Below the pieces are notes generated by a model, which ran no database searches, was not told where the DNA came from, and worked only from the letters and a program-made list of their open reading frames with translations. Position numbers and translations under genes: made by a program. A stretch of DNA of 31,082 nucleotides from a virus (taxonomy: Duplodnaviria; Caudoviricetes), in the IMG/VR virus record IMGVR_UViG_3300037634_000692, positions 1 through 31,082 of that record, one strand, 5' to 3'. Below are positions 1 to 24,811 of the stretch, piece by piece (the first letter of the stretch is position 1; the number at the start of each line of letters is the position of its first letter).

Positions 1-3000
1 TGTTTCTCCAGCTTTTTTATTTAATTTTTTACTAACTTTAGGAAATTGCTTTTTTAAATTACTGTAGTCATTTGCAGACGTTTGTCTAGATGTATTTAAT
101 TCATTTATACCTTTAGCGAAAGGGTCTACTAAGGCTTTCTTAAAAAACTCCATAGCCTCATCACCCTTTTTACCTCTTGGTATAAAGTTATATATCAACC
201 CCATAAAGTCTTGAGCTGAAGCAGGTATAATGCCTCTAAACTTCTTTTTACCACCTCTCATTCTAGCTTGTGCTTCTGAGAATATTTTTTTAGCCTCAAC
301 GCTAGTTGCTTGTTCCAATATATCGTTAAACTCCCCACTAATATCTTTACTAAACCGTATTCTACTACCACCAGCTACTTTTCTAGGTAATCCTTTAGCT
401 TCAGGATCTATTTCTAAAACCTTTTTTAAATCTATTCTTACTTTACCATCTACAGTTTGCGTAACGTTTTTTAAGTCAGAATTTTTTACTGGCATTCTCC
501 ATCCTATTTCTGTTATAGGATGAGTATTTCTATCTCTTACGATACCTTGGGCATCTAAATTAACCCCAGCGAACATATAAGCATATCCATCTTCCTCGTA
601 TTGACGCTCTATCATATCTCCTTTTTCCATAATTATGTCAGAGGCTGTAACACCTAATCCTGCAAACGCATTAATACCAGTCATATTACCATCCACCGCA
701 AAGTCATACGTAGCGATAGTCTCACCGTTTTTATTAAATTCTACTATTCTAAAAACGCTCCCATCTTTTCTAAATTCAGTCTTTTTAACTGTTTTACCAT
801 TAACTCTTTCTTCTACCATTGAATGTATTTCCGCCCAAGGTTTTCTAGACGGATATGTGGTTGTAACCGTGTTACCATCTTGACTAACAGTACGTACTTC
901 AACAAGGGTCTCGGATAAATCTTCGTTTATTTCTATTGATTTTGTAACCTTACCTTTTTTAATTATTATAACAGGACCCGCTGTATCATTATCCATTCTA
1001 TCCCAATACCGTCCATTAGCGAAAAAAGCTAATAGTTTTCCGTCTTGAAAGATTATTCTTTTTTGAGTTTCTCCATAACTTGTCCAACTTATTTTAGAAT
1101 CATCTGTTAATTTACCATCTTTAGATTGTGTTATACACCAAGGATTAGAATTTTTTCCCCAATGTGAATCTATAATATCTCTAACTGCCTGTTGGCCTTC
1201 TGGCGTGTTTTCTACATTATAAGTCGTAATTCCCCTTTTTTTATAAGACGCAGAGGGTGAAAATTCTTTAACATCATTTGGATCAAGAACTTTCTTTTCA
1301 ACCTTACCAGCGTAAGTTTCTATTATTTCATTAGGATTATTGTAAGAGAATAAATCTAACTTAAATCTTTCTGCCAAGTTAATAGCGTCTGTTATTTTAA
1401 ATCTATCTTCAATTAACTTTACGTTACTTGTAGCTAACCATTTAGTAGTTATTCTTTCGTATTTTCTTTTCTTATCGTTAGGAATATTTAAACTGTCTAT
1501 AAAAGTAAACATACCATCTACAGTTTGAGACACTTTTCCCTCTCTAACTAAATCAGGACGATGTTTAGATATTGTGTTTTCGTATTCTCCTCTATGTTTT
1601 TTTGAAAATTGGATTCTGCTATACACGCCCGGAGACGATAAAGATTCTACACTCTTAACACTATTAATATCACGTGCTTCTTTTATATTAGCAAGAGCAG
1701 GATTCACCAACATTCCATCCATTGTATGATCGATAGACTTACTGAACTTGATCTTAGCTTGAATAACCTTAGACTTAATATCTAATTGATCTAAAACACG
1801 CTTAACGGCTTCGACGTTTTGCATCGCATCATCTGCGAAGAACATATCATTATATCCCTCTGAAAATTTTTCTAACATCCATTCAGCTTTCGCTTCTCCA
1901 GTACTATTTCCTAACCCAGTTATATTTTCTATAGGAATATCTAATCCTTGAGACTTCAAAAACTCATGAATAGGTATTACAGCTTCGGATGGTCTAGCAG
2001 TCAATATATACGTGTCTTTCGTACCAAATTTCCCAGCTCTATCCATAGCTGTTTTAAACATAGGTCCTTGAGCTCCTTCTGTAACTACGTCAAATTCTGT
2101 AAAGTCAAACTCTCCACCTTGTTCTAATATTTTAGCTCCTTGAGTAGCAAATTCCTCAGCATCTAATCTAACTTTTTTATATCCACTAACAAAATCGTTC
2201 ATTTTATCCACTAGCTTAGAAGGCATAGCGTCTTCTTGTTTGAGCTTATCAGTGTTAACTTCCATGAATCTTTCACCAAACATTTCTTTAAATCCATTTT
2301 TATTTCCTTGAACTGCCTCGTGATTTTTTATAACAATTTTATCTAATAGAGATCTTTCTGCTCTAGCTTTATTTCTAGCTAAAGCTACATCTAAAGAAGT
2401 TTCAACGAAAGTCATACCAACATCATATCCTTTATCTTTAAATTCATTAACCAACGTTTCCATAGCTTTGATAGAACCACCAGTGCCATCTACAACAACA
2501 CCATCAGCGCTACCTTGATACTTCGTCATCTTTCTTTTAGCTATACCTCTAGCTTGATGCTGTAGCGTACCAAGTTTACTTCTTTGTTCTTTGGTAAAGT
2601 CGTTCATATTCTCTGGTAATCCAGAGTTCTTTTTTAACCACTCTAAAGATATATCAGAGTTAACTACTTTAAATCCTTGTCCTTCTAAATTTAGTTTTTT
2701 AATAACATTTCCTTTTCCGCTTCCAGCTCCACCAGCTAAGAATATAACTTTTCTATTAGGTTGTGGAGTTCCATCTGGATTAGGTATCCTAGCTCTTACT
2801 CCAGATTTAGTAGTAGCTAAAGTATCATCAAAATCCCAAGCGCTCATACCTCTTGAAGGTGTTTTGTGATTTATTAACCTAGCATTATCAACAGCTTTAC
2901 TAAACCTAAAAGCGTTGTTGATTTCGGATTTAGACGGGGTAACTTCTGCAATTTTAGAAAACTCAGTAACATATCTAGCATCAACTTCTCCTGTTAATTG

Positions 3001-6000
3001 TTTTATAATTAAATCATTAGCGGTTTCGACTGGCATTCCTTCAACACCAAAAAACTCTGCTATCGTTTGTCCTCCTTCTACTAATTTATAACTATTTAAA
3101 TCTATTCCAGCGACAGCTAATCTAACAACAGAAGACATACCATCTGGTAATTTTAATTCACCACTTAAAAGTCTAGGAACGATTTTATCAAAATAAATGT
3201 CTGGCATAGTATTCCCTAACCCAGCGGCTGCCAACATTTTATCGTGTGTTTCTAATAAAGAACCTTGCATATAAGACTTACCAACCACCCTCCAAACTGT
3301 ATCCACATTGGAAAAAGCAGCTGCAGCAAGCATAGCCTTACCAATTTGATTTTGAGGATCAGTATGTTCTTCTACAACACTCTTATTGTACACAGCGTTT
3401 CCATTTTTATCTACAGCATAAAAACTAAAAGGAGCTAAAATTCTTGTAAAAGTATTTTGATGTTTACCGGTGTCTAATAACATTTCTTCAAACATCCAAA
3501 CGTCTTGTGGAAAGTTTTGTAAATGTCCTTCCACCGCCTGAAAAAACTCAAGCAAAGTAGGTAATCTTTCTGATTGATCTTGTTTGAACTCGCTTGTATT
3601 TATTTTATCAACCGCACTTGGTTGAAGTCTTTTTCCTTTATTGTATTTTACTTGCTTTAGTTCTACTTCTCTAACACTTGTTTTATCTATTCTTGAATTA
3701 AAGTTTTTAACTGTTTTGTAAAAACCACCTTTTTCTCCACCTGTCATGGTGCTACGTATAAAAGGTCTAAATCTAGGTGCTCCTTCTAAAAATCTATTAA
3801 TAACACCATCGCCTTCTTCTCCATAGGTTCTTCCAGTTTCTTTACCATGAATCTTAAACGGAGCATTTAAATCTCTAGTAGAATATGTTTCAATAGTACC
3901 GTCAGATTTTTTTCTTTGGACTTGTTTATTTGGAACACGATCAATACCGTGTATCCAACCTAACGCTCCTAGTTTAAATATGTAAGTATCTTTAAAATTC
4001 TCTACATTATTTAACGCTAGATCTAAAGATTTTTTCTTCGTTCGACCTTCTTCACTAAACATTATTCTCGATTTACCATCAGCTATTCTTTGTATAGTCT
4101 CTATAGATTCTTGTCGTTCCATTAAGTGTTCTCTGACAGCTTGATTAGTAAGCATTTTACCTGTTTGAGATACTAATGCTTTTATTCTCGCACTAGTATT
4201 ACTATCTTTCTTATAAGTATTTTCTTTTCCTCTTTCTGTTATACCAAAAACTTCTAAAAATTCTTGGATTGAAATACCTTTGTTTTTTACTTGAATAGCT
4301 AAACCAGCCTTACTACCTGTTTTAGCAGATGTAACTCTACCAGTTTTAGTATAAAAAGCATCTAATAAAACTTTTTGAACGCCGGTAGACGTACCACCAA
4401 TTGTAGACCCTTCAGGTAGCATCTGCACCAGGGTCGCAGCATGTTTATTTATAAACATTTGGGCGTTCTTAATATCTTGTTTTGTTAAATTACCGACCTT
4501 AGGAACTATTCCAAACATTTGTTGTGTTAACTCTGGTGTTAAATCTTTTAATGTTTTGAAGTTAAGATTAGAAACGTCCATACCAGAAACTATTGCTTTA
4601 ACTTCTTTATTTATTTCAATAGCATCTGAACCTAATCTTTCTGATAGTTTTATTTTTTTACCCGTTGCTTCTTCTGTAATAGTAACGGTTTCTTCTGCGG
4701 CTATATCGCCTCTTTCAGATATATCTTCTGTAAATTCCTCACCTAATACTCTATTAGAAGCTTCTATAGCTCTTGACGGTAAGTATTTGTTTATATAAGC
4801 AGCTAATGGAACTCCTGACTCTGGTTTATACTCTTGTATTAAATCAAAAATACCTCTTGATCCTGTTTCTATTTCATCTGTTAATAGCTGTTTATCAAAT
4901 CCAGGTGCTTGCCTACGTCTCTCAACTATTTTATTAGTAATAGGCTTGAACTGTTCTATAATATCCATAGCCCCAGCAACTCCCTGTTCCTTATATATTG
5001 ATTGGACCTTATCAGAAGCTTCTTTAGAGAACATTGGAAATCTACCATCTGTATCCTGTTTAAGACCCATTTTTCTTAACGTCTTAGCCCATTGAATACT
5101 ACCGTATTTTATTGTACCACCTACTCTAGCTCCCTTCTTCATGGTTCTTTTCATCCCCTTACTCATTCTACTTTTGTCCATACTTCTATTATAGTCTCTA
5201 ACGAAGTTCATTACATCTCTACCAGTATTAAATGTAACTCTTTTACCACCTAGAGAAAACGCTCTTCTAAACATGTCCCCTATTTTAGTAAACACAGTTT
5301 CGTTAAACTTGATTTCACCAGATGCTAAAGCGTCTGAGAATAAAGTTAAAGTTTCTTCAGCTGAATTAATTTTATCTCCAGCTTGATAATCTTCAAGTCT
5401 TCTTTTGAAATTAGTGTTTTGTACACCTCTAGGATTCATATTCATTAACTGTTGCTCTAAGGCTTTTCCTACAGCTAACTTAGTGTGAGGGTTTTGATTA
5501 AAGGTTTTATTTAAAAATCTATGTAAAAATTCATGAACTGCTACGTTTGCGTTTCCGCCATCTACTTTAAGAGCAGCTTCCTTATTGATTATTATATCAG
5601 ACTCGCCGTCAATTTCTGGCGTAATAAATCCATGTACACTACCAAAATCTTGTGACATTTTATCAACATCTTCATTTAATTTATCTATATCAATACCTCT
5701 TTCATTTAAATCTTTTTTAGATAAAGTATAGTTATTCTTTTTATCTACATATACTTGTCTACCAGTTTTAGCGTCTTTAATTGTTTCAATACCGTATTGG
5801 TCTAATATGTCGTTTGTTGCTTTTTCTTTATAAACCTCAGCAGCTTCTTGTGAGCTTTCGTTTTCTATAATATTCAAACCTGGATCTACTTCCTTAGCGT
5901 GTTTTTTAACGTTTTCTAGATTCTTTTTATAAGCTTCAGTGTTTTTATCTTGATTTATAGATTCTATTACAGGACTTATTATTTCTTGTCTATCGTTTTC

Positions 6001-9000
6001 TAGTAAGTCTAATTCTCTTTGTAACTCGTCTAATTCTTTTAAAGCTTTTTGTTTATTTTTACTAGGATTTTTCTTTTTGTTTTTTATTTTTGTTTCTAAG
6101 TTCTCTATGTTTTCAGTTATTTTCTCTACTTCTTTAACTGACTCAGTATCTAAAGAGTTAATAGCCTCTACTTCCATTTCTGTCTTAATATCTTTTGCTA
6201 TCTCAACTAAATTCTTAGACGTTAAATTGTTTTCAAACTCAGTGCCTTTGAGAATATTATAAATCTCATCAAACGCATAGTAATCATTACTTATTTCTAT
6301 ATTAAGACCTTCTAGCTGACCATTATCTTTAGCAAACTGAACAGCCTCCGCGGCGTCTTTAGGGTTACTGTAACTATCCATACCTACAATATAAACTGGA
6401 TTATCACCCTTGTCTGTTGCAAATTCCCAAACCCTACTTCCCGCCCCAAACATCATCTGCATCGCGCTTATCTGAATAGTCATTTCTTCAAAAAACTTTC
6501 TATCCATACCGTCGTTCCATCTTTTTCCATCAATCCAGTTGTGAGCAGGTTGACCTATCATTTCCTCAAACATCTCCGGTAATATTCCATTCCAACTACC
6601 GGCTTCTATAAATTTTTGAAGGAACGTTGGATCAGCTGGATTTAAACCACTTTTTCTAGCCCAATTACCTAAAAACATTCTTTTTGCCCACTTTGGATTG
6701 TTTTTCAATTTTGTCCTTAAAAACTTTTGTCCAGTAGGTAAGAGTTCTCCAAATCTTTCTGTTGCAAATTCAATAAAATTATGTTTATAAGAATCCCAAA
6801 AAGCTTCCCAACCATCTTTGGTCTCATCGTATGTAGGTGTCCATTTTTTATCTCCCGGCATGTTACCATCTGCGTCTGGTACTGGAAATCCTAAATTATC
6901 AATATCAATAATCATACCGTCAGCACCCTCTGTTAACGACCAAGACATTTCTGGCGTTAAGTTTTGCTCATACCCTTTGTATATATTAGCGGCCCCACCA
7001 ACGGTAGCCATCGTAGCTGTTGTCATCAAATACTCAACAATTGTAGCTGCTCCATCTTGTATCTTAAATCCAGACGATGGCATGCCTTTCATCTTTATAT
7101 ATCTATCTAATGTTTTTTGAGACGTAAAAGCTAACCTTCCCTTTCCTCTTACTAAAAGATTACTACTTCTTCCAACTACTTTACTTAATCCTCTTGTAGC
7201 AACCATTTCAACCATAAACTTCAGGGAGCTGACAGCGCCTCCTCCTGCGTTATAAGAAGAAGAGCCCTCACTTAATCTATGTTTCATGTTCCCATCTTCA
7301 ACGTAAAACAACAAAACTTGTCTTTCGTCTATAGTCAATTCTGGATTATTATCCGGATCGTCAGTATGGAGTTTTTCTTTCTTTAATAAATCGTTTATAT
7401 AACTCTGGTGTCTACCAGCTTGAGCATCAGCAATAAGAGGCATCCATTCTCCTCTAGAAAAAGCATCCCCCATCCCATCAAAAAACTGACCAACAGCAGT
7501 ACTTTTCATAAACTCAGGACTCTTCATTATACTTCTAGCGTAATACAACTGTTTTTGTTGTGCTTCGGTTAAATCATCTTCGCCATCTAACATATCTATT
7601 ACTTCATCTGCCCACATTTTCATCGCTGTGTTAGTAGGACGTCCTTTTTTATCCAAAGAAATATGACTATAAGCTTTGTAGTAAAACTCTTCTCTTCTAG
7701 CATCGACATCTTCTTTAGACATGCCATTAGCATCATATATTTGTTCTTGAGCTGCCCAAGCTAGATTTATAGATGCCACCTGTCCTTTCCAACCTAAGGT
7801 ATGAAATTTAAATTTTTCGTTCTGAGTAAGACCACCGAAAATTTCTTTATAAGTGGCTTCTGGAATTAATTGAGTCTGCCCTTTTTTAGTTTCGTAAGCG
7901 TTTTCTACAAAGTCATCTTGAAAATCTATTGATATTTCTTCGAATTCCTTAAGTTTCTTCTCTTTCCAATCACCTAAAATTTTATCTTCTTCCTCTAAAA
8001 ATCTCTTTTGATACAACGCATTGAAGTCTGTGTATATTGCATCTAATTCTTTTTGTCTGCTTGTCTTTTGAGAGTTTTGCCATTGGCTATATTTTTTGTC
8101 AGATCTACTTTTCCATTCGTCTTTAAAATCTTGATCTGATTGAGGATCAAAAGTACCTTCTTCTATTTCTTTAAGAAGTTGTTGTTCTACCTCGTCTACT
8201 ATTTCACTTCCTTTTGATTCGTCTTGTTTTATAAACTTATTATTTACACCATCTGCTTTCAAATTCAATTCATCGACTTGATCTTTGAATTCAGTTTCTA
8301 AAGTTGTTTTAATGGTTTCTATGTGGGGTTTTATTTTGATGTCGTATTCAAGATGGTAATCTTCTTCTAATTTATCCTGTTTTACCTTCCATTCTTTTTC
8401 CATTTCTGGAAGAACTTTATTGTTAAACCAATCCGTCTCTTGTTTTTGTTTATACTCTATTATATCCATATAAAGAAGACCTTCTTCTTTAACTTCTACA
8501 GTTTCAGGAAGAGCTGCTTCTTGCTTCTCTAATTCCTCTAGATATTCCTCATAATCACTTTCGCTTTTCTTTTCTAACTCGATCGCTTGGGACCCAGCCG
8601 CTATCTCTCCACCACCTGTAACGATTTTATGTTCCTTCCCGTTTACTATAACGGTAGTGGTATTCATTCCTTCTTCATAAAGTCTATTATACTCTCTATC
8701 TAAAACATCTTCTAATATATGTTCTTTACGCATCCAGTCATTGTGTAGCGTTTTCATCTTCAGCCATTCGTCCATATGTACTTCGGGATCAAAACCAGTC
8801 GCTGGATCATATCTATATGTGTGGTTTTTACCAGCTACTTTTTTTGTAAATGTTAGTAAACCAAATTTATCAACACCTTCAATTGGAGCTTCAGAGTCAT
8901 CTTTTTTCGTGAAATCTGGATGATCTGACATTAAAACAAACACAGGTGGGGCTTTCTCAAATCCCGAATGTAAAGTACGTTGACCTCTGCTATTCTTTTT

Positions 9001-11091
9001 TCTAACTATGTAAGAGTTAGTTTGCATTTCTATGCTACCTCTTCTATCTCCTTTCTCGACATACGGTTTAAGAGAGCCAAATGAAGACGCTTGTTTTCCA
9101 GGAAGATAGATTCTTTCTCTATTAGTAGCTATATGCTCTATATACGCCGTCACGTCAACTCTCCCATGCTCATCGATAAACTTATCTCCATACTCTAGAG
9201 CGTCATCAGTTACATCTCCCGCGTAAGAGTTCCACCCACCAGCAACAACATCGAGAATCGCATCACTATCTTTGTTACTAAATCTTAAATCTGATTTATT
9301 CAAAAAAGAAACGTATCGCGCATAAACATCTGCCCACATTGCGTCAGGATCTTTATTATAAGAAGTAGCTAAATCTATAACTATCTGTCCACGATCTCCA
9401 AATCCAAAATCCATCTTATCTCCTGAATATCTAGTTCCCCCCGCCCCTCTTCTAGTAATAACTAACTCATCAGCTCCACTTAAATTATTATAATCAAAAT
9501 CATAATAATATTGTCCTTTAGCGTTTTGAGCTTCCATACTAGAATTGTAATCTACTTTATCGTTAAAGTGATTATGATATTCTTGTAATCTTTCGGATAT
9601 AAATTCTTCCATATCAGATTCACCAGAAATTTCTTCTGTTAACTGCATAAAGGTTTCGTAATCAACAGTACCACTAGTCATTCTTTTATCGTAACTAACC
9701 TCTATCTCATTGTCTTCGTCAGTATAACCTTCGTAAGGTACTTGCTTTAACCTTCTTTTCTCTTCGTTTCTTTTATATATTTCTTCTCTTTGATCTTTAT
9801 ATGGATCTTCCCAATCTTCTCGTGATTTTACTATTTCTTCTTTGGTAGGATCAACCCCCTCTTGTTCCCAAGCAAATTGAGGTGCTGTATCTCCATAACC
9901 GGATGTTACGCCGGCCTTAGCAAGACTATGTTCCATCACGTCATAATATTCCCCATTTCGTACCAAATTATTGTATTCTATTTGTGATATTTCTTCGTTT
10001 TCTAATTGTTCTTCGTATTTTGGTAATTTTTCAGCCTTACGTTTTTCTGTTTCTTTCTTACTTTTAACTTTTTCTAATTCTGTCTTTAACTGATCAACAG
10101 ATGCTTGGCTAACTCCTAATATTAATTTTTGAGAATCTCTTAATACATAAGCGTCAGGATCTACAGCTTCTATTTCATCAAACAATTCTTGTCTTTCATG
10201 TATAAGATCTAGTGTTGCTTGCAATCTCTTAGGATCTTGTATATCCGCCCAAGCACGACCCTCACGACCATCATTGAAATCGTAATCATAAATATATTTC
10301 TTAATCAACTCCTTATCCTCATCAGATATGTCAACTTTTTCAACAAACTTTTTGTCGTTTACCCAATCGTCCCACTCCTCTTCTCCGTTAATCCTACTTA
10401 AAAACAGATCATAAGTATTATCACTATGTTCCTTCTTCTTTTTTTCTAATTCTGTCTTTAACTGATCAACAGATTCTTCTTTCTCTTCTTTTAAACGTAC
10501 CGCTTTCTCTTCTTTTAAACGTACCGCTTTAGCCACGTCGTCATTCACTTCCCATGTTCCAATACCATTTCTTCCAAAATTTGCATCCCATTCTTTCGGA
10601 ATAATAGGATTTCCATTTTCGTCTAGTTTAACCTCTACATCCTCGTAGTCCTGCAACCCGTTGTTATAAATGTTAATTACTGGAACATAACCTTCTGTAT
10701 CTTTATTTTTATTGTGATTCTTTTTCCAATTCGATAAAAAATCTAGTTTTGCTCCCTCTCGCTCTAAATCCCACCATTCCCAATCATCCAAAGCTTTTAC
10801 GTTGTATTTTTCTTCAAATTCTAATTTTTCTAATTCGAGTGTAACCTTATCAATATCTTCTTTAGATCCGTCTCCTTCAAATAAATCTTCTAATTCAGTT
10901 TCTTTATCTAAAATTTGGTTTTTTATTTTAAAGTTGGCTTTTTTTTCTTCTTTATCTTCAACTTCTTCAACTTCTTCTTCAAAACCAGGATTAGCCGCGT
11001 GCCAACCAGCCTCTGTTTTCCATTGCGTACCTACTTCATGCGCTAAGGCATTGCCTTCTTTATGTTTTAAAGGTGATTTAGTTTTATTCAT
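1..11091 (-). CDS. Giant (>3697 aa, 3'-truncated) polyvalent virion/ejection protein with zincin, sigma-like, HNH-like, HAD phosphatase, P-loop kinase and WC-motif modules
   Basis: ATG at 11091-11089, one base after the TAA of the upstream gene. It reads MNKTKSPLKHKEGNALAHEVG... to ...FPKVSKKLNKKAGET at base 1. I saw no in-frame stop in manual translation, and its absence from the ORF track fits a frame with no stop in the window. Motifs: HEFLH 5521-5535, DFDDT 2821-2835, GGAGSGKG 2710-2733, ILTAR 1993-2007, FADD 1828-1839. Its position after the tail genes is typical of ejected internal proteins. Confidence 0.9.
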   Translation of the reverse strand, partial: MNKTKSPLKHKEGNALAHEVGTQWKTEAGWHAANPGFEEEVEEVEDKEEKKANFKIKNQILDKETELEDLFEGDGSKEDIDKVTLELEKLEFEEKYNVKALDDWEWWDLEREGAKLDFLSNWKKNHNKNKDTEGYVPVINIYNNGLQDYEDVEVKLDENGNPIIPKEWDANFGRNGIGTWEVNDDVAKAVRLKEEKAVRLKEEKEESVDQLKTELEKKKKEHSDNTYDLFLSRINGEEEWDDWVNDKKFVEKVDISDEDKELIKKYIYDYDFNDGREGRAWADIQDPKRLQATLDLIHERQELFDEIEAVDPDAYVLRDSQKLILGVSQASVDQLKTELEKVKSKKETEKRKAEKLPKYEEQLENEEISQIEYNNLVRNGEYYDVMEHSLAKAGVTSGYGDTAPQFAWEQEGVDPTKEEIVKSREDWEDPYKDQREEIYKRNEEKRRLKQVPYEGYTDEDNEIEVSYDKRMTSGTVDYETFMQLTEEISGESDMEEFISERLQEYHNHFNDKVDYNSSMEAQNAKGQYYYDFDYNNLSGADELVITRRGAGGTRYSGDKMDFGFGDRGQIVIDLATSYNKDPDAMWADVYARYVSFLNKSDLRFSNKDSDAILDVVAGGWNSYAGDVTDDALEYGDKFIDEHGRVDVTAYIEHIATNRERIYLPGKQASSFGSLKPYVEKGDRRGSIEMQTNSYIVRKKNSRGQRTLHSGFEKAPPVFVLMSDHPDFTKKDDSEAPIEGVDKFGLLTFTKKVAGKNHTYRYDPATGFDPEVHMDEWLKMKTLHNDWMRKEHILEDVLDREYNRLYEEGMNTTTVIVNGKEHKIVTGGGEIAAGSQAIELEKKSESDYEEYLEELEKQEAALPETVEVKEEGLLYMDIIEYKQKQETDWFNNKVLPEMEKEWKVKQDKLEEDYHLEYDIKIKPHIETIKTTLETEFKDQVDELNLKADGVNNKFIKQDESKGSEIVDEVEQQLLKEIEEGTFDPQSDQDFKDEWKSRSDKKYSQWQNSQKTSRQKELDAIYTDFNALYQKRFLEEEDKILGDWKEKKLKEFEEISIDFQDDFVENAYETKKGQTQLIPEATYKEIFGGLTQNEKFKFHTLGWKGQVASINLAWAAQEQIYDANGMSKEDVDARREEFYYKAYSHISLDKKGRPTNTAMKMWADEVIDMLDGEDDLTEAQQKQLYYARSIMKSPEFMKSTAVGQFFDGMGDAFSRGEWMPLIADAQAGRHQSYINDLLKKEKLHTDDPDNNPELTIDERQVLLFYVEDGNMKHRLSEGSSSYNAGGGAVSSLKFMVEMVATRGLSKVVGRSSNLLVRGKGRLAFTSQKTLDRYIKMKGMPSSGFKIQDGAATIVEYLMTTATMATVGGAANIYKGYEQNLTPEMSWSLTEGADGMIIDIDNLGFPVPDADGNMPGDKKWTPTYDETKDGWEAFWDSYKHNFIEFATERFGELLPTGQKFLRTKLKNNPKWAKRMFLGNWARKSGLNPADPTFLQKFIEAGSWNGILPEMFEEMIGQPAHNWIDGKRWNDGMDRKFFEEMTIQISAMQMMFGAGSRVWEFATDKGDNPVYIVGMDSYSNPKDAAEAVQFAKDNGQLEGLNIEISNDYYAFDEIYNILKGTEFENNLTSKNLVEIAKDIKTEMEVEAINSLDTESVKEVEKITENIENLETKIKNKKKNPSKNKQKALKELDELQRELDLLENDRQEIISPVIESINQDKNTEAYKKNLENVKKHAKEVDPGLNIIENESSQEAAEVYKEKATNDILDQYGIETIKDAKTGRQVYVDKKNNYTLSKKDLNERGIDIDKLNEDVDKMSQDFGSVHGFITPEIDGESDIIINKEAALKVDGGNANVAVHEFLHRFLNKTFNQNPHTKLAVGKALEQQLMNMNPRGVQNTNFKRRLEDYQAGDKINSAEETLTLFSDALASGEIKFNETVFTKIGDMFRRAFSLGGKRVTFNTGRDVMNFVRDYNRSMDKSRMSKGMKRTMKKGARVGGTIKYGSIQWAKTLRKMGLKQDTDGRFPMFSKEASDKVQSIYKEQGVAGAMDIIEQFKPITNKIVERRRQAPGFDKQLLTDEIETGSRGIFDLIQEYKPESGVPLAAYINKYLPSRAIEASNRVLGEEFTEDISERGDIAAEETVTITEEATGKKIKLSERLGSDAIEINKEVKAIVSGMDVSNLNFKTLKDLTPELTQQMFGIVPKVGNLTKQDIKNAQMFINKHAATLVQMLPEGSTIGGTSTGVQKVLLDAFYTKTGRVTSAKTGSKAGLAIQVKNKGISIQEFLEVFGITERGKENTYKKDSNTSARIKALVSQTGKMLTNQAVREHLMERQESIETIQRIADGKSRIMFSEEGRTKKKSLDLALNNVENFKDTYIFKLGALGWIHGIDRVPNKQVQRKKSDGTIETYSTRDLNAPFKIHGKETGRTYGEEGDGVINRFLEGAPRFRPFIRSTMTGGEKGGFYKTVKNFNSRIDKTSVREVELKQVKYNKGKRLQPSAVDKINTSEFKQDQSERLPTLLEFFQAVEGHLQNFPQDVWMFEEMLLDTGKHQNTFTRILAPFSFYAVDKNGNAVYNKSVVEEHTDPQNQIGKAMLAAAAFSNVDTVWRVVGKSYMQGSLLETHDKMLAAAGLGNTMPDIYFDKIVPRLLSGELKLPDGMSSVVRLAVAGIDLNSYKLVEGGQTIAEFFGVEGMPVETANDLIIKQLTGEVDARYVTEFSKIAEVTPSKSEINNAFRFSKAVDNARLINHKTPSRGMSAWDFDDTLATTKSGVRARIPNPDGTPQPNRKVIFLAGGAGSGKGNVIKKLNLEGQGFKVVNSDISLEWLKKNSGLPENMNDFTKEQRSKLGTLQHQARGIAKRKMTKYQGSADGVVVDGTGGSIKAMETLVNEFKDKGYDVGMTFVETSLDVALARNKARAERSLLDKIVIKNHEAVQGNKNGFKEMFGERFMEVNTDKLKQEDAMPSKLVDKMNDFVSGYKKVRLDAEEFATQGAKILEQGGEFDFTEFDVVTEGAQGPMFKTAMDRAGKFGTKDTYILTARPSEAVIPIHEFLKSQGLDIPIENITGLGNSTGEAKAEWMLEKFSEGYNDMFFADDAMQNVEAVKRVLDQLDIKSKVIQAKIKFSKSIDHTMDGMLVNPALANIKEARDINSVKSVESLSSPGVYSRIQFSKKHRGEYENTISKHRPDLVREGKVSQTVDGMFTFIDSLNIPNDKKRKYERITTKWLATSNVKLIEDRFKITDAINLAERFKLDLFSYNNPNEIIETYAGKVEKKVLDPNDVKEFSPSASYKKRGITTYNVENTPEGQQAVRDIIDSHWGKNSNPWCITQSKDGKLTDDSKISWTSYGETQKRIIFQDGKLLAFFANGRYWDRMDNDTAGPVIIIKKGKVTKSIEINEDLSETLVEVRTVSQDGNTVTTTYPSRKPWAEIHSMVEERVNGKTVKKTEFRKDGSVFRIVEFNKNGETIATYDFAVDGNMTGINAFAGLGVTASDIIMEKGDMIERQYEEDGYAYMFAGVNLDAQGIVRDRNTHPITEIGWRMPVKNSDLKNVTQTVDGKVRIDLKKVLEIDPEAKGLPRKVAGGSRIRFSKDISGEFNDILEQATSVEAKKIFSEAQARMRGGKKKFRGIIPASAQDFMGLIYNFIPRGKKGDEAMEFFKKALVDPFAKGINELNTSRQTSANDYSNLKKQFPKVSKKLNKKAGET
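1753..2850 (-). other. HAD-superfamily phosphatase domain, interrupted by a P-loop kinase
   Basis: All four HAD motifs occur in order: I AWDFDDTL, II YILTARP, III K in GEAKAEW, IV MFFADDAMQN. Confidence 0.85.
2180..2770 (-). other. P-loop kinase domain (zeta-toxin/AAA_33/polynucleotide-kinase-like)
   Basis: KVIFLAGGAGSGKG (Walker A), VVNSD, GVVVDGTG, GYDVGMTFVETSLDVALARNKARAER (RxxxR lid). Boundaries are approximate. Confidence 0.85.
5340..5640 (-). other. Zincin-like metallopeptidase domain within the giant ORF
   Basis: HGFITPEIDGESDIIINKEAALKVDGGNANVAVHEFLH: GF strand, IIIN strand, then the HExxH helix. A downstream EE (SAEETLT, 5353-5358) about 55 aa later is the candidate third Zn ligand. 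Confidence 0.75.
10069..10474. repeat. 34-bp exact direct repeat pair (10069-10102 and 10441-10474) encoding SVDQLKTELEK
   Basis: tttttctaattctgtctttaactgatcaacagat occurs twice, 372 bp apart and in the same frame. Confidence 0.9.
10480..10530. repeat. 24-bp tandem duplication (KAVRLKEE x2)
   Basis: tttctcttcttttaaacgtaccgc at 10480-10503 and 10504-10527. Confidence 0.9.
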
Positions 11092-11092
11092 A

Positions 11093-12124
11093 TTAAATTA
11101 CTGCTTCTGTTTGATTTGGTGCTTCTGTTTGACTTGGCGTGCTTCTTTTTTGACTTGCCACTTCTCTTTGATTTGGAGCAATTCCCTGTTGTTGCATTTT
11201 TTGATCTAAACTTAATTTCGACCTTCCTCCTACGTTGGAACTAGATGCCACTTCTCTTTGATTTGGAGCAATTCCCTGTTGTTGCATTTTTTGATCTAAA
11301 CTTAATTTCGACCTTCCTCCCACATTGGAACTAGATGCATTACCATCTCTTATAGTTTTGTAATCTGAATCAAAGGCAACTCTAAGCCTATTAGCATAAT
11401 AAACATGTAACCTAGTGTCGTTATTAGGATCAAAAGAATCTGGATGCAACAGATCATCTGTTATTTCACCAGATGTCAATGCTTCTTGATTTTCTTTCAT
11501 CCATTCTTGTAAAAAATATACCCCACCTATTTTATCAGAAACAAATATTTTCCAAGCATCCATATTAATGAGTAATTTATCAACCGCCCAATCAATATCA
11601 AAATTAGGGTGTTTAACAGCTGTTTGTCCTTGTTTTACTAAGTCTTGATGGTATTTCATATAATCAGCCTCTTCAGTACCCTTAATAACCCAGTTCTCTG
11701 TAATATCCTCAATACGTTTGACTATTGGGTTACCAGCTGGGTCGATAGCGGTAAGTAAAAGATCAAAGTTTCCATCAAAAGAAATAGTACCTCCTTCTCC
11801 AAAAAAAGCTCTTTCCCAATTAAGATCAGTATAGTTCGAGAAAAGATTTTTCCCTCCAGTTCCTCCCCCATAATTCATAGCGAATTCCTCTTTAATAGCT
11901 TTTAAATTATCCAACTTTCTAGCTATACTTTTTATGAGATCAGATATAGTCTGAGATCCTTCTTTATCTCCACTAGCAAATAACGCATCGAATTGTTTAA
12001 CTAAATTAGATATTAGTTTATTAATAACCCGCTGGTTAGCCTTACCATGTATTTCTGATGACTTAGAGTCATTGCCATAAGGTATATTTTCAAAATACTT
12101 CTTTATATTTTTATCGTCTGACAT
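11093..12124 (-). CDS. Hypothetical protein, probable internal virion/ejection protein (343 aa) with a repetitive C-terminus
   Basis: ORF track. It lies between the pilot-like gene and the giant ORF and is coupled to the latter (TAA-T-ATG). Function is inferred from position only. Confidence 0.6.
   Translation of the reverse strand: MSDDKNIKKYFENIPYGNDSKSSEIHGKANQRVINKLISNLVKQFDALFASGDKEGSQTISDLIKSIARKLDNLKAIKEEFAMNYGGGTGGKNLFSNYTDLNWERAFFGEGGTISFDGNFDLLLTAIDPAGNPIVKRIEDITENWVIKGTEEADYMKYHQDLVKQGQTAVKHPNFDIDWAVDKLLINMDAWKIFVSDKIGGVYFLQEWMKENQEALTSGEITDDLLHPDSFDPNNDTRLHVYYANRLRVAFDSDYKTIRDGNASSSNVGGRSKLSLDQKMQQQGIAPNQREVASSSNVGGRSKLSLDQKMQQQGIAPNQREVASQKRSTPSQTEAPNQTEAVI
11156..11338. repeat. 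90-bp tandem duplication (ASSSNVGGRSKLSLDQKMQQQGIAPNQREV x2)
   Basis: Units 11156-11245 and 11246-11335 are 88/90 identical, and both differences are synonymous. Confidence 0.95.
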
Positions 12125-12136
12125 ATTGTTTTATTT

Positions 12137-12775
12137 TTATCCTGGAATAAATGATGATATCCCACTACTAACTGCTCCAGATACAAATTGATCTACCGTA
12201 GCTTGAGCATCAGCAATAGCTTGATCAGACGCATTCTTTCTTTGCATTGCGTAATCTAACATTTGCTCTTCTTTCTTTATATCATGAGCTTCTACCATTC
12301 TTTTACCTTCTCTAACCATTAAATCTCTTTTTTGCTCGCCTTCTACCTTCATTTGCTGTAACCTTCCAGATTCAGCTATCATTTTTTGTTCGTTAGCTTG
12401 TTCTTGAGCTCCAATGGATACAGATGCTTGTTGTGCTTGTTTCACACCTTGATTAGCTAATACTTGCGCTAATCCTGCTACGCCACTTCCTCCAGTTGAT
12501 CCCTGCATACTTTGCATTATATTTGCCATAGATTGTTGGGATTGTTCCTTCTCAAACTCAGCTTGTTTTAAGTTTACAGTTGCGTCTTCGTAAACATTTT
12601 CTAAGTTCTCGTAAGGATTTTTCACTCCCGCATAGGGATTCTCCATTTTTCTTTCTTCCCAATCTGCATATTTTTGTCCAAAATCTTCGTTAGCTGATCG
12701 CTGCTCGTCTCTTCTTGCGGCTCCTCCAAATAAAGCGTTTATGAATTTTGTTGGTGCTGCTTTTTTATTTGCCAT
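12137..12775 (-). CDS. Probable small ejection/pilot-type internal virion protein (212 aa)
   Basis: Gln/Ala-rich helical sequence with Gly-rich hydrophobic patches (ALFGGAA, GGSGVAGLAQVLA, FVSGAVSSGISSFIPG). It sits directly after the tail genes, like T7 gp14 or P22 gp7-type proteins. Confidence 0.6.
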   Translation of the reverse strand: MANKKAAPTKFINALFGGAARRDEQRSANEDFGQKYADWEERKMENPYAGVKNPYENLENVYEDATVNLKQAEFEKEQSQQSMANIMQSMQGSTGGSGVAGLAQVLANQGVKQAQQASVSIGAQEQANEQKMIAESGRLQQMKVEGEQKRDLMVREGKRMVEAHDIKKEEQMLDYAMQRKNASDQAIADAQATVDQFVSGAVSSGISSFIPG

Positions 12776-14461: not shown

Positions 14462-17400
14462 TTAATCTATTGTTTCTACTATTCCTAATCCTTGGAAATT
14501 AAAGGCCGCTGTGTCTATTTCACTTGGTTTTCCTTTAATATAATTAAACCATTTGCCTTCTTTTTCTATAAACTCATTTAGCGTTCCCTCTTGTTTATCT
14601 GTGCGTATGTTTGAAACATACCATCCGTCTTCTGATTGCAAGTTGTAATACTCTCCATCAGTAAGACCAGTCGTTGGATCTGTTGTAAATTGGTCTATTT
14701 TAGATTGGCTACCTTCGTAATTCAAGGTATTAAAATTCTTAACAACCGCCGGGTGCATATTTAATATTGGAGTTATAGATGATTCTTCATGCGTTCCGTA
14801 AAAAGTATTTCTATTTATTTCTATACCTGATGAGCTAAACTGTTCTACATGATGTTTCCATAACTGGCCAAAACTCATAGTATAATACTGATTAACACAA
14901 CTAAGCCCAAACTCAGGAACAAAAGATTTGAAACTAGTCCAGCCTTTTGACCGTTCGTTAAAAGTCAGGGTTGACCCTTGTCCTGAATTTATAATTAAAG
15001 AAACGTCATCTAGTTGAAATTTGTAAGGATAATTATCACTTACTCTGAATCCAAAAACTCCACTCGTACCTAAATTCCAACCAGAAGGGGACGATGCTCC
15101 TCCAGCTGTAGTATTATATACTTGAGTAGTTATAGTATCTGAAACCGTACCCTGAACAACGTAATTATTGTCCTGGTTAAAGGTATACTCAAACCCATTA
15201 CCAGCAGAGTTATACATATACATAGTTATCTCCGCTTGATAAGCGGGATTTAAGTTTGTTATATTAAACGATACCGTGAAAGAAGTTCCAATCGGATAAT
15301 CTACAGATAAAAACTGCTCAATACCACTGTCAACCGAAGCGTCATCGAATTCTATGTATCCAGGTCCGGTAGGAGATGTATTACTAACAGGCAAGAAATA
15401 AACCTCACTTGTAGGATTTGGAAATATACTCCAATCTGCTATTCCCCCTCCTGTGTAACTTATTTCTTTTAGGGAAACATCCTTAATTAAGACTTGATCT
15501 CCCATTTGTTGGTAAATAGTAACAGGAAATCCTCCAGTAACTATATCAAAAATTGTACTATAAGTGTCTCCGCTCTCAAAAGTGTAATCATGGAGAGCAA
15601 AGTTGTCACCAAAAGTTTGAACAACCCCTGTTAAAGATTGGTTTGAAGACTTGTTGAAAGAGGCTTTATATTTTTTACCTGCTTGTAAGTTATACGTATC
15701 ATGTATTAGCATTGGCTCTGGCTCTGGATTTGTATCTTCGTGAAAAGCAAAAGCGTTAGAACTGGTTACGGTGGCGCTATATGTGTTAAACTCAAATCCT
15801 TGATAAGTCCAATCGTCAATACTTTGACCCGTAACAACTGTTGTTGATGGGCGTGTAAATTCAAAACCTGGTACCCAAGGTATTCTCCATTGCCACTCAG
15901 GTAATGTATTACCAGGGAAAGTTGCATTTAAGTTAGCTGGCGCTGGATCATAATATGGATTACCCGTCTGTCCACCAGAAGGATGTGTTAACTGAGTCAT
16001 GTTTAAAGGTGGAATTACATCAATAGTTACTTGTATTGTTCCTGGATAACTACTAGGTTCCCAAACACCGTTTACGCTTCCTAAAATTGGTGGATTGTTA
16101 AAACCCTGTGGTCCTGGAGTTTTAACTTCATCTCCAATGTGAATATGAGGATCTGTTAGTTCTACCCATCTAATAGTAACTGTAGCAATAACACTAGATT
16201 GATTAGTTGTACTACCTGTCGTGCTCCAACCCACTAATCTAGCGTCTTTATCTTGATATCTATCAGTTTTAGCATAATTTGAAGGATAAGTAGTTGTAAT
16301 ATCTGTAGTTGCTGAAAAATCCCAATTAGTTAAAAGCTCAGGACCATAAATTTCCGTAGGAGTTCCCCCTTGATTAAACCCAGGGTTTACGAGTAGATTC
16401 TCTCCAGTTGACAGAAATATAGATAAGTTATAATCTCCTTTGTGAGCATCATAACTACCATATAATCTTTCACCGTCTCTTAAATTATCTCTGAAGTAAT
16501 CGTGCATTCCAGCGTCTGATATTGGAGTTAATCCGTCCATAGATAATCTTATTACAGCCCCTCTTTGTTTATCTGTGAAGTAAGATCTAAATGATTCCGC
16601 TGCGAATGACTCTGGATTTTTAGATATACCAAAGTTACCTCTAAAAGGCTCTGCTGTTCCTAATACTCTGTTCGTAGCTAATAATTGTGTGTTTCCATCT
16701 GCATTATAAAGTATATCTTTATCTACATACACTCTAATAATTTTATCTTCACATAGAGTTATAAGATCTTTATCTCTCGCGTATAGCTTTTGTATACTAC
16801 CATATGATGGCATTAAATCTTTTGTTATCTTTTCTGCTTGTATAAACTGATTTAAATTATTAACCCCACTTGTAGAGTTATATAAACCAGAATATATTAA
16901 TCCGTGTTTTCTTCTTTCTTCCTCGTATGGCTCTTCTAATACTGTAGATGCTTTAACTCCATTTAAGATATATGACTCGTTAAAATCATCTCTAATTCTA
17001 TTAGATTCAACTCCGTTACCAAAACTAAAGCAATTGAAAAATGGTAGTCCCGTGTATTTATTGTGAACATTGTTACTAATAACAAGCTTGGTTACGTAGT
17101 ACTGCCCGTTATTAGGACCTGTTATCCCGTCACTTGGTATATTGAATATTCGTGCAGAAGTATAGCTCCCGTTTTCTTTCCAAAACTTTAAGGTTCTATT
17201 GTAGAATTCTCCAGTTTGACCACTCGGTGTTGGAGGTTCATTCGGAGACACTTTTAATCCAGGTCCGTTTAGCTCAACTATATTTCCGTCCCACGCTTTT
17301 ACTCTTACCCAAAAATCTTCTCCCCACTCAGCGTTTTGATCCGAGTAGTCCAATACAGATCCTGGTAAACTACATGTAACTCTACTTCCTACAGGTGCTA

Positions 17401-23675: not shown

Positions 23676-23684
23676 AATATTTTT

Positions 23685-23840
23685 TTATTTTTTATAAGGA
23701 AAAGCTTTATTTAAAGCTTTTTTTCTTTTGTCACAACCACAACCTTTTTTGCTTATATGATTAAACAAAGTTCTTATTCCAGTTATTTTTGTAATTTTTT
23801 CTATTGAATCTCCTAAGCCTTTTGATTTATTTGATTTCAT
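23685..23840 (-). CDS. Small basic 51-aa protein with GLGD and CGC motifs (not in ORF track)
   Basis: MKSNKSKGLGDSIEKITKITGIRTLFNHISKKGCGCDKRKKALNKAFPYKK*, ATG 23840, TAA 23687-23685. It fills the gap between co-oriented genes. Confidence 0.75.
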   Translation of the reverse strand: MKSNKSKGLGDSIEKITKITGIRTLFNHISKKGCGCDKRKKALNKAFPYKK

Positions 23841-23848
23841 ATAATTAT

Positions 23849-23886
23849 TGTAGTTTACGATCGCCCCGTAGGGCGACCGCTCTACA
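23849..23886 (-). other. GC-rich RNA hairpin with a c(UACG)g tetraloop
   Basis: Minus strand UGUAG-A-GCGGUCGCCC-UACG-GGGCGAUCGU-AAA-CUACA: a 10-bp stem with two G-U pairs plus a 5-bp outer stem, and no U-tract. Confidence 0.7.
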
Positions 23887-23892
23887 GTTTGA

Positions 23893-24735: not shown

Positions 24736-24759
24736 AATATAATATATAATAAAATTAAT

Positions 24760-24795
24760 AAAAATAAAGGGGTTGGGGAATTACCCCCAACCTCT
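24760..24795 (-). terminator. Rho-independent terminator after the major capsid gene
   Basis: Minus strand AGAGGTTGGGG-GTAATT-CCCCAACCCCT followed by TTATTTTT, 16 nt after the MCP stop. Confidence 0.8.
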
Positions 24796-24811
24796 CTAAT
24801 ATAATAAATGC

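What the first reader, a model, noticed from the sequence alone, without database searches (positions are those of the whole stretch)
1..11091. Hidden >3.7k-aa polyvalent virion protein: candidate injected multi-effector polyprotein
Seen: a single open frame over more than a third of the window, missed by the ORF track, with zincin, sigma-like, EHxxP, HAD, P-loop kinase and WC-motif modules in series after a hydrophobic segment. Established: podoviruses place ejected proteins after tail genes; Crassvirales eject giant cargo including RNA polymerase; polyvalent proteins of phages and conjugative elements combine zincin peptidases with variable effector domains. Inference: this phage injects a host-takeover/anti-defence toolkit instead of (or as well as) an RNAP. 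I do not recognise this domain combination as described.
Basis: partly seen in the sequence, partly recalled or inferred. Interest (0 to 1): 0.9.

Follow-up and report, generated by a model that had tools for sequence, protein, structure and literature searches.

The report
Giant phage protein carrying sigma domain
A marine phage encodes a modular protein of more than 3,697 residues that is likely packed in its particle and injected with the DNA; it contains a zinc-protease motif, a domain predicted to fold like the RNA-polymerase-binding part of a bacterial sigma factor, and a phosphatase with a kinase inserted in it, and it would let the phage start its first genes from its own non-host promoters without carrying a polymerase.

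Summary
The ORF is real: 3,697 codons, no stop, cut by the contig end; relatives suggest 4,250-4,410 aa. It lies last in the virion block of a Pervagoviridae/Pachyviridae-like podovirus, in the slot whose genes are MS-detected virion proteins in phi18:3. About 920 IMG/VR stretches hold the family. Core: zincin (HExxH 87/89), sigma domain 2 (fold matches 25 of top 25 rows; 99/113 relatives), unassigned 'mid' and EHxxP domains, HAD phosphatase (84/89), helical C-terminus. The kinase (nested in the HAD) and the WC cassette are optional; FS[KRE] linkers mark module borders. No RNA polymerase motif. Near-complete relatives carry a repeated non-host promoter-like motif (TACA-N5-AATACG-N10-GATAAT; 23/26, and 18/18 motif-bearing contigs encode the giant) upstream of their separate sigma gene. 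Best reading: a polyvalent ejection protein, likely self-cut, that delivers a sigma-2 module for early transcription. Main rival: the separate sigma reads the motif and the virion domain is a decoy. Nothing is shown biochemically; EHxxP and WC remain unassigned; no transmembrane-strength segment. The scan reported this family and the injected-sigma idea before on other DNA.

The parts
1..11091 (-). Giant ORF, 3,697 aa, 3'-truncated; estimated full length 4,253-4,410 aa
   Evidence: estimate from 13 complete relatives of the same architecture
7522..11091 (-). Variable acidic, coiled N-terminal region (res 1-1190); function unassigned
   Evidence: matches in only 2 of 89 relatives for res 400-1190, none for 1-400; no Pfam hit
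6292..7524 (-). Relatively apolar helical region (res 1190-1600); relatives' copy gives sub-cut-off LPD14 hits
   Evidence: hydropathy; 11 of 89 relatives; LPD14 E 9.8e-6 and 2.8e-4 in L073, L041, none in the window's own copy
5062..5664 (-). Zincin-like metallopeptidase: H1853, E1854, H1857 and downstream E1913
   Evidence: invariant in 50 of 50 rows; HExxH in 87 of 89 giants; pattern as defined in PMC5512222 section 8
4717..5034 (-). Sigma-70 domain 2-like module (res 2020-2125)
   Evidence: VIA-align top 25 of 25 rows are sigma domain-2 chains, best Z 8.2, rmsd 2.7, 86 aligned; Z 8.8 to E. coli sigma70; profile vs PDB E 0.003; 99 of 113 giants, 0 reversed controls
4057..4659 (-). 'Mid' alpha/beta domain (res 2145-2345), basic; unassigned, candidate upstream-element-binding partner of sigma-2 (inference)
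   Evidence: 50 of 89 giants; folded with confidence; no family hit
2917..4044 (-). EHxxP domain (res 2350-2725; invariant H2576, near-invariant E2575, R2657); topology resembles a His-Me finger nuclease by eye, unassigned
   Evidence: 58 of 89 giants; conservation; secondary structure; no Pfam or PDB match
1756..2910 (-). HAD-superfamily phosphatase (res 2728-2775 plus 2966-3112), all four motifs intact
   Evidence: 84 of 89 giants; motifs in 90 of 90 and 91 of 91 domain hits; DUF2608 hit in 13 of 15 uninterrupted copies, 4 above cut-off
2197..2766 (-). P-loop kinase (zeta/AAA_33 type) inserted in the HAD loop; optional cassette
   Evidence: Pfam above cut-off; 11 of 89 giants; stand-alone homologues in T4-like and jumbo phages
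922..1620 (-). Helical domain plus WC domain (NPWC, W-x-x-Y, WDR-x-D); mobile cassette, unassigned
   Evidence: 28 loci; after the HAD in 14, elsewhere in 14; model pLDDT 89; no fold match for the WC core
610..972 (-). Single-layer beta-meander (res 3374-3494), MORN/DUF2963-like
   Evidence: Pfam DUF2963; TarM/GtfA sheet Z 9.5, rmsd 2.4, 94 aligned
1..366 (-). First 122 aa of the conserved helical C-terminal domain (666-825 aa where complete), the family's most conserved part; likely ejection/channel part (inference)
   Evidence: no detectable homology to T7 gp16 or cultured giants
346..5031 (-). Six FS[KE] linkers at module borders (F2021 at 5031, F2345 at 4059, F2730 at 2904, F3116 at 1746, F3162 at 1608, F3580 at 354); candidate cleavage tags
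   Evidence: 5 by regex vs 1.4 shuffled, 36 of 2000 shuffles reach 5; the sixth seen by eye
12137..12775 (-). 212-aa gene, first of the small-medium-giant trio; homologue of MS-detected virion protein gp120 of phi18:3
   Evidence: family profile iE 9e-10 to phi18:3 gp120, 1e-9 to phi38:1 gp099; MS note in record
11093..12124 (-). 343-aa gene, middle of the trio
   Evidence: position only; no homology to cultured counterparts

Best explanation
This is a modular giant protein at the end of a podovirus virion gene block that is likely packaged and injected with the DNA, is probably cut by its own zincin domain at the FS[KE] linkers, and would then release a sigma-domain-2 module that likely redirects host RNA polymerase to the phage's own early promoters. 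Shown: the ORF, the module order, intact catalytic motifs of zincin, HAD and kinase, the sigma-2 fold of the model, cassette gain and loss among relatives, absence of an RNAP motif, and a clade-specific promoter-like motif upstream of the separate sigma gene in relatives. Inferred: packaging and ejection (synteny), self-cleavage (motif position), that sigma-2 (perhaps with the 'mid' domain reading the TAC repeats one helical turn apart, in place of sigma-4) fires the motif, and that the HAD/kinase pair heals nucleic-acid ends like T4 Pnkp while EHxxP, WC and other swappable cassettes act in conflict with the host.
For: Slot: portal, terminase, capsid and muzzle-like genes match Pervagoviridae/Pachyviridae; in phi18:3 the small, medium and giant genes of this slot are annotated as MS/MS-detected virion proteins and the small one is homologous to the window's 212-aa gene. 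Sigma-2: (5 of 66 members hit Sigma70_r2, best E 0.004); region 2.3-2.4 keeps an aromatic in 89, Asn in 63 and Arg/Lys in 88 of 99 copies; with Flavobacterium beta' 120-360 the complex scored 0.50 against best control 0.00, contact agreement at least 82%, partner pLDDT at least 81, rated weak (at 0.60 or under only 18 of 157 solved pairs and both passing mismatches; sigma-clamp complexes are solved, so likeness may explain it). Promoters: motif TACA-N5-AATACG-N10-GATAAT in 23 of 26 giant-bearing contigs at least 90% complete, nearly all copies on one strand, 1 hit for the reversed control, 0 of 4 cultured relatives; 18 of 18 long motif-bearing contigs encode the giant's C-terminus; about 290 stretches in 596 Gb of prokaryote genomes, near my equal-base chance estimate of about 280; unlike the Bacteroidetes TTTG/TAnnTTTG consensus; in 4 of 4 genomes read, copies lie upstream of and on the strand of the separate 250-aa sigma gene. 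Linkers: 278 vs 95 expected in 89 giants, 147 within 30 aa of a border; inserted cassettes are flanked by them.
Against: No experiment shows packaging, cleavage or activity. The giant itself has no detectable homology to the MS-detected giants of phi18:3 or phi38:1. No sigma-4 was found. Sigma-2 is very divergent (mean column identity 20%) while the motif and the separate sigma are highly conserved, which suits the separate sigma as reader. 14 of 113 giants have no detectable sigma-2. Motif and giant co-occur as marks of one clade, so the counts are not independent. The window lacks the early region (54% complete), so its own promoters are unseen; the host is inferred from relatives. One full host-type promoter lies on the motif strand 3.5 kb upstream in G002. 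131 of 278 linker matches are away from borders, 24 of 89 C-domain borders lack the strict tag, and of the 2 giants without HExxH one keeps border tags.
Confidence: 0.5

Rival explanations
1. The protein is an injected polyvalent protein, but its sigma-2 domain is a decoy that occupies the beta' clamp and shuts off host transcription (or binds another partner); the motif is read by the separately encoded full sigma in a positive-feedback loop primed by host holoenzyme.
For: Separate sigma-70 gene in 6 of 8 relatives at least 90% complete, highly conserved; virion sigma-2 divergent and without sigma-4; motif has -10-like and -35-like parts.
Against: The separate sigma gene lies downstream of the motif copies in 4 of 4 genomes; no full host-type promoter lies inside the motif clusters of the five genomes read; surface residues of region 2.3-2.4 are conserved.
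Confidence: 0.28
2. The protein is ejected whole as a T7-gp16-like channel/cargo protein; the zincin serves encapsidation or attacks host proteins and FS[KE] is a recombination or structural linker, not a cut site.
For: N4 vRNAP carries an MPTase yet is packaged unprocessed (PMC5512222 section 8); the kinase and ART-like inserts inside the HAD loop have no tags; L081 lacks HExxH but keeps tags.
Against: Tags are enriched about threefold and sit at borders, often doubled, on both sides of mobile cassettes.
Confidence: 0.15
3. The protein is not a virion component but a late non-structural or surface fibre protein, and the motifs are relics.
For: No direct homology to a known ejection protein; large charged coiled regions.
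Against: Slot conserved and MS-detected in phi18:3; catalytic residues invariant across 50-90 divergent copies.
Confidence: 0.07

Closest known systems
Phage-type polyvalent proteins with a zincin-like MPTase (Iyer et al. 2017, PMC5512222)
   Same: Disparate domains in one chain, MPTase hub, portal-terminase context, cassette swapping; relatives give weak ART-PolyVal and LPD14 hits.
   Different: The word 'sigma' and 'Cellulophaga' do not occur in the main text (its FTP supplements were not seen); no sigma-2, nested kinase-HAD, EHxxP or WC module in the sections read.
Crassvirales cargo proteins incl. virion RNA polymerase (crAss001 gp45-gp50; PMC10172136)
   Same: Bacteroidetes podovirus with a muzzle-type protein (crAss_MUZ_C hit) and giant cargo encoded after tail genes.
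   Different: No RNAP motif here; a sigma-2 domain and a separate sigma gene point to use of host polymerase.
Sigma-70 family domain 2 (SigB 8x6g, sigma70 6ca0, SigE 8b3z; minimal phage sigmas such as T4 gp55, recalled)
   Same: Fold and region 2.2-2.4 pattern.
   Different: Embedded in a 4,000-residue virion-type protein, 7-19% identity, no sigma-4 found.
T4 polynucleotide kinase-phosphatase (PKN-HAD, described in PMC7824862 passages)
   Same: P-loop kinase plus HAD phosphatase with intact motifs.
   Different: Kinase is nested in a HAD loop, present in only 11 of 89 giants, and replaced by an ART-like insert in two; no PDB sequence match to Pnkp.
Cellulophaga phi18:3 gp120/121/123 and phi38:1 gp099/100/101
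   Same: Same slot and small-medium-giant pattern; first gene homologous.
   Different: Their giants (1,935 and 1,691 aa) lack HExxH and every module tested; their genomes lack the promoter motif.

Membership tests
Polyvalent proteins (Iyer 2017) | Two or more biochemically unrelated domains in one polypeptide | tested here: met
   zincin, sigma-2, HAD, kinase
Polyvalent proteins (Iyer 2017) | Zincin-like MPTase with HExxH and a downstream Glu | tested here: met
   H1853/E1854/H1857/E1913 invariant in 50 of 50 rows; by motif, the fold searches did not list a zincin
Polyvalent proteins (Iyer 2017) | Encoded by a phage with portal-terminase packaging | tested here: met
Polyvalent proteins (Iyer 2017) | Shares named domains with described members (ART-PolyVal, LPDs) | tested here: inconclusive
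   only sub-cut-off hits, in relatives
Polyvalent proteins (Iyer 2017) | Packaged and delivered with the DNA | not testable with these tools
   synteny proxy only
Sigma-70 factor | Domain 2 fold | tested here: met
Sigma-70 factor | Domain 4 helix-turn-helix | tested here: inconclusive
   all sigma matches end near model residue 312-328; the 'mid' domain was not searched alone
Sigma-70 factor | Binds the beta' clamp helices of core RNA polymerase | tested here: inconclusive
   weak support, 0.50 vs best control 0.00
Sigma-70 factor | Directs promoter-specific initiation | not testable with these tools
   candidate promoter motif in relatives
Virion RNA polymerase proteins (Crassvirales, N4) | RNA polymerase catalytic module | tested here: not met
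   DxDGD-type motif in 4 of 131 ORFs at unconserved places, none in the window; no RNAP family hit in the window or 17 related giants; single-subunit type tested only through these Pfam scans
T4 Pnkp | Kinase and HAD domains with catalytic motifs | tested here: met
T4 Pnkp | N-terminal kinase followed by C-terminal phosphatase | tested here: not met
   kinase is inserted inside the HAD
T4 Pnkp | Activity on RNA/DNA ends | not testable with these tools
   needs assay
HNH / His-Me finger nucleases (EHxxP domain) | beta-beta-alpha metal site | tested here: inconclusive
   strand-EH, strand, helix with Asp in the model; no family or fold hit
Pervagoviridae / Pachyviridae | Shared portal and structural protein clusters | tested here: met
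   portal 38-51%, capsid 25-47% identity
Pervagoviridae / Pachyviridae | Full core gene set and genome-level clustering | not tested
   window is about half a genome

The most novel reading that the evidence does not exclude
A widespread clade of marine podoviruses starts infection by injecting a self-processing polyprotein that releases a stand-alone sigma-2 module (with a partner domain reading tandem TAC repeats in place of sigma-4), converting host RNA polymerase to a phage-specific TACA-N5-AATACG-N10-GATAAT promoter before any phage gene is expressed: a third route to early transcription besides host sigma and virion RNA polymerase, bundled with an RNA-end-healing enzyme and swappable effectors.
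Probability: 0.45. Interest if true: 0.9.

Novelty: new variant of a known kind. Interest (0 to 1): 0.72.

Why it matters
Lytic phages are known to begin transcription with the host's sigma or with a packaged RNA polymerase. A packaged sigma module with its own promoter class would be another solution, used by an abundant uncultured clade (about 920 IMG/VR stretches). The promoter motif, the 106-residue domain and the separate sigma give a direct in vitro test, and the tag-bounded cassettes offer a way to watch polyvalent-protein processing, which is so far mostly predicted.

Tried and rejected
Pfam, PHROGs and NCBIfam on the whole protein and pieces: only kinase and DUF2963. Foldseek of the 916-aa model vs PDB: no match at E<=0.001; vs BFVD only homologues and weak sigma rows; VIA lists were filled by sigma-2, so zincin, 'mid' and EHxxP folds are untested. 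C-terminal domain vs PDB sequences, PHROGs, T7 gp16 and cultured giants: nothing, so a T7 gp16 link is not claimed; it was not folded. WC module: ESM Atlas 0.76 unnamed, 10 unnamed homologues, no PcfJ hit (the PcfJ resemblance is recalled only). EHxxP: 6 unnamed homologues; GmrSD_C no match. HAD vs PDB sequences and cultured phages: none. Protease-tag covariation: only 2 of 89 giants lack HExxH, one with and one without border tags, inconclusive. No RNA holder listed among sequencing runs. Literature searches for a virion-delivered sigma or this family gave nothing relevant (2 unrelated listings; 116, 130, 139, 140: 0 papers); subscription journals are not covered.

Full report
Observation. 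The minus strand holds one frame from ATG 11091 to the contig end, 3,697 aa without a stop. Contigs of the best-holding run touch all 30 bins, include a 6,627-base exact match and run past position 1; no single piece spans the ORF, and listed indels are compensating pairs. The record is rated 54% complete.

Context. Upstream lie terminase, portal, scaffold-like, capsid, ring and muzzle-like genes (PHROGs, crAss_MUZ_C). Nearest annotated relatives are flavobacterial podoviruses: MW202828, Maribacter phage Panino, elemo phages, Cellulophaga phi38:1 (Pervagoviridae) and phi18:3 (Pachyviridae). All four records opened end the block with a small, a medium and a giant gene; in phi18:3 the three are annotated from MS/MS of virions. 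A family profile of the window's 212-aa gene hits phi18:3 gp120 at iE 9e-10. The giant itself shows no homology to those giants or to T7 gp16, so virion location is inferred from the slot. crAss001 cargo proteins are the described parallel (PMC10172136, passages).

Family. One C-terminal pattern matches about 920 IMG/VR stretches (80 kept). Among 89 ORFs over 1,900 aa with the C-terminal domain (one duplicate contig dropped): zincin profile 79, sigma-like 64, 'mid' 50, EHxxP 58, HAD 84, kinase 11, WC cassette 3; 8 of the other 10 still have HExxH. A more sensitive profile finds sigma-2 in 99 of 113 HExxH-bearing giants and in none reversed. A targeted scan gave 28 WC loci, 4 of them contigs seen before; in 14 the cassette lies between HAD and C-domain as in the window (best 57% identity, L110), in 14 elsewhere. 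Thirteen complete ones put the window's protein at 4,253-4,410 aa. The HAD loop that holds the kinase holds an ART-PolyVal-like insert in L092/L093, and L012/L027 carry a DUF6934-like cassette after the HAD; LPD14 and GH108 hits occur in N-terminal parts; all are under Pfam's cut-offs. This is the behaviour described for polyvalent proteins (PMC5512222: abstract, passages, sections 6 and 8; supplements not seen).

Modules. Zincin: H1853, E1854, H1857, E1913 invariant in 50 rows. Sigma-2: the model of residues 1810-2725 (pLDDT 77) matches sigma domain 2 in the top 25 of 25 VIA rows (Z 8.2, rmsd 2.7, 86 aligned) and Z 8.8 to E. coli sigma70; such Z values are middling for helical domains, but sequence profiles agree. 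All matches stop at the end of domain 2. The complex with Flavobacterium beta' 120-360 scored 0.50 against 0.00, rated weak and possibly from likeness to solved complexes. HAD: motifs intact in every hit, DUF2608 in 13 of 15 copies scanned. Kinase: Pfam above cut-off; a stand-alone homologue in pelagiphage HTVC008M sits beside a DUF6267 protein with a KWDG motif and a cytidylyltransferase-like protein, compatible with nucleic-acid end processing (inference; PKN-HAD role from PMC7824862 passages). EHxxP and WC fold confidently but match nothing beyond a generic beta-meander. No RNA polymerase motif.

Linkers. FS[KE] occurs six times in the window's protein, each at a border defined by gain or loss of modules. 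Five fit the regex (36 of 2,000 local shuffles reach five); in 89 giants 278 vs 95 expected, 147 within 30 aa of a border, 131 elsewhere, many of those inside the conserved HAD and C domains. Self-cleavage is likely, not shown.

Promoters. Six of eight relatives at least 90% complete encode a separate 250-aa sigma-70. In five genomes read in full, small-ORF clusters (taken as early region, inference) carry 5-7 copies of TACA-N5-AATACG-N10-GATAAT shortly before start codons. It is found in 23 of 26 giant-bearing contigs, almost only on one strand, against 1 hit for the reversed pattern and 0 of 4 cultured relatives; 18 of 18 long contigs picked by the motif encode the giant. It marks about 970 viral stretches but about 290 in 596 Gb of prokaryote genomes, close to my rough chance figure of 280. 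The Bacteroidetes consensus is TTTG/TAnnTTTG (PMC6847099, passages). In G002, G006, G007 and G010 the copies lie upstream of the separate sigma gene on its strand, so that sigma cannot easily start its own first round; an injected factor would. Against this: clade-wide co-occurrence is not independent, the virion sigma-2 is far more variable than the motif, one host-type promoter lies 3.5 kb upstream in G002, and the window itself has no copy because it lacks that region.

Verdict. A real, widespread polyvalent ejection-type protein; member of that class on all testable features, not a virion RNA polymerase, sigma-like but not shown to be a sigma factor. I put the full mechanism at 0.5 and the decoy reading at 0.28. 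I found no paper on a virion-delivered sigma or this family; PMC8776804 (passages) defines the families without it and PMC13288928 (passages) added nothing. The scan's own notes describe the nested kinase, the tags and the injected-sigma idea on other genomes; they are unchecked repeats, not support.

Noticed in passing
G001, G002, G006, G007, G010 and 18 more handles: Repeated promoter-like motif TACA-N5-AATACG-N10-GATAAT, up to 10 copies per genome on one strand, TAC repeats 11 bp apart; absent from the window.
   Followed up: yes
G002:48420-49175, G006:59571-60329, G007:3695-4447 and 64909-65661, G010:25033-25791: Separate, well conserved 250-aa sigma-70 gene downstream of the motif cluster; G007 has two copies.
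   Followed up: partly
L092:9170-9568, L093:9170-9580: ART-PolyVal-like insert at the same HAD loop that holds the kinase in the window.
   Followed up: partly
L012:9467-10000 and L027: DUF6934-like cassette between HAD and C-domain, with the end of the HAD and its FSK tag duplicated behind it.
   Followed up: partly
L071:1934-2300: Glycosyl hydrolase 108-like (lysozyme-type) hit at the very N-terminus of one giant, just under cut-off.
   Followed up: no
L015:5827-12022, L050:4719-11614, G013: Giant split into two ORFs or holding one TAA; may be natural splits or assembly errors.
   Followed up: no
C-terminal ends of L006, L007, L010, L012, L013, L021: One or two Cys/His zinc-knuckle-like repeats after a Lys-rich tail (DUF5763 hit in L007).
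   Followed up: no
L133:1158-6402 (HTVC008M): Stand-alone homologue of the kinase in a cluster with a KWDG-motif DUF6267 protein and a cytidylyltransferase-like protein; several begin with L/I-x-E motifs like T4 internal head proteins (recalled).
   Followed up: partly
window 23676-23892 (-): About 50-codon ORF with a CGC motif below the 60-aa limit, preceded by a G+C hairpin; another hairpin with a T-run at 24736-24811 after the capsid gene.
   Followed up: no
window 11093-12124 and residues 188-205, 208/331 of the giant: Exact 30-aa tandem duplication near the C-terminus of the 343-aa protein; short duplications in the giant's N-terminus.
   Followed up: no
window 2803: Loose contig ends at the kinase insertion point in two runs, as expected from co-occurring kinase-less HAD variants.
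   Followed up: no
window 14462-21604: 2,380-aa muzzle-like protein (crAss_MUZ_C); the same slot holds 3,396 aa in G006 and about 950 aa in Panino.
   Followed up: no
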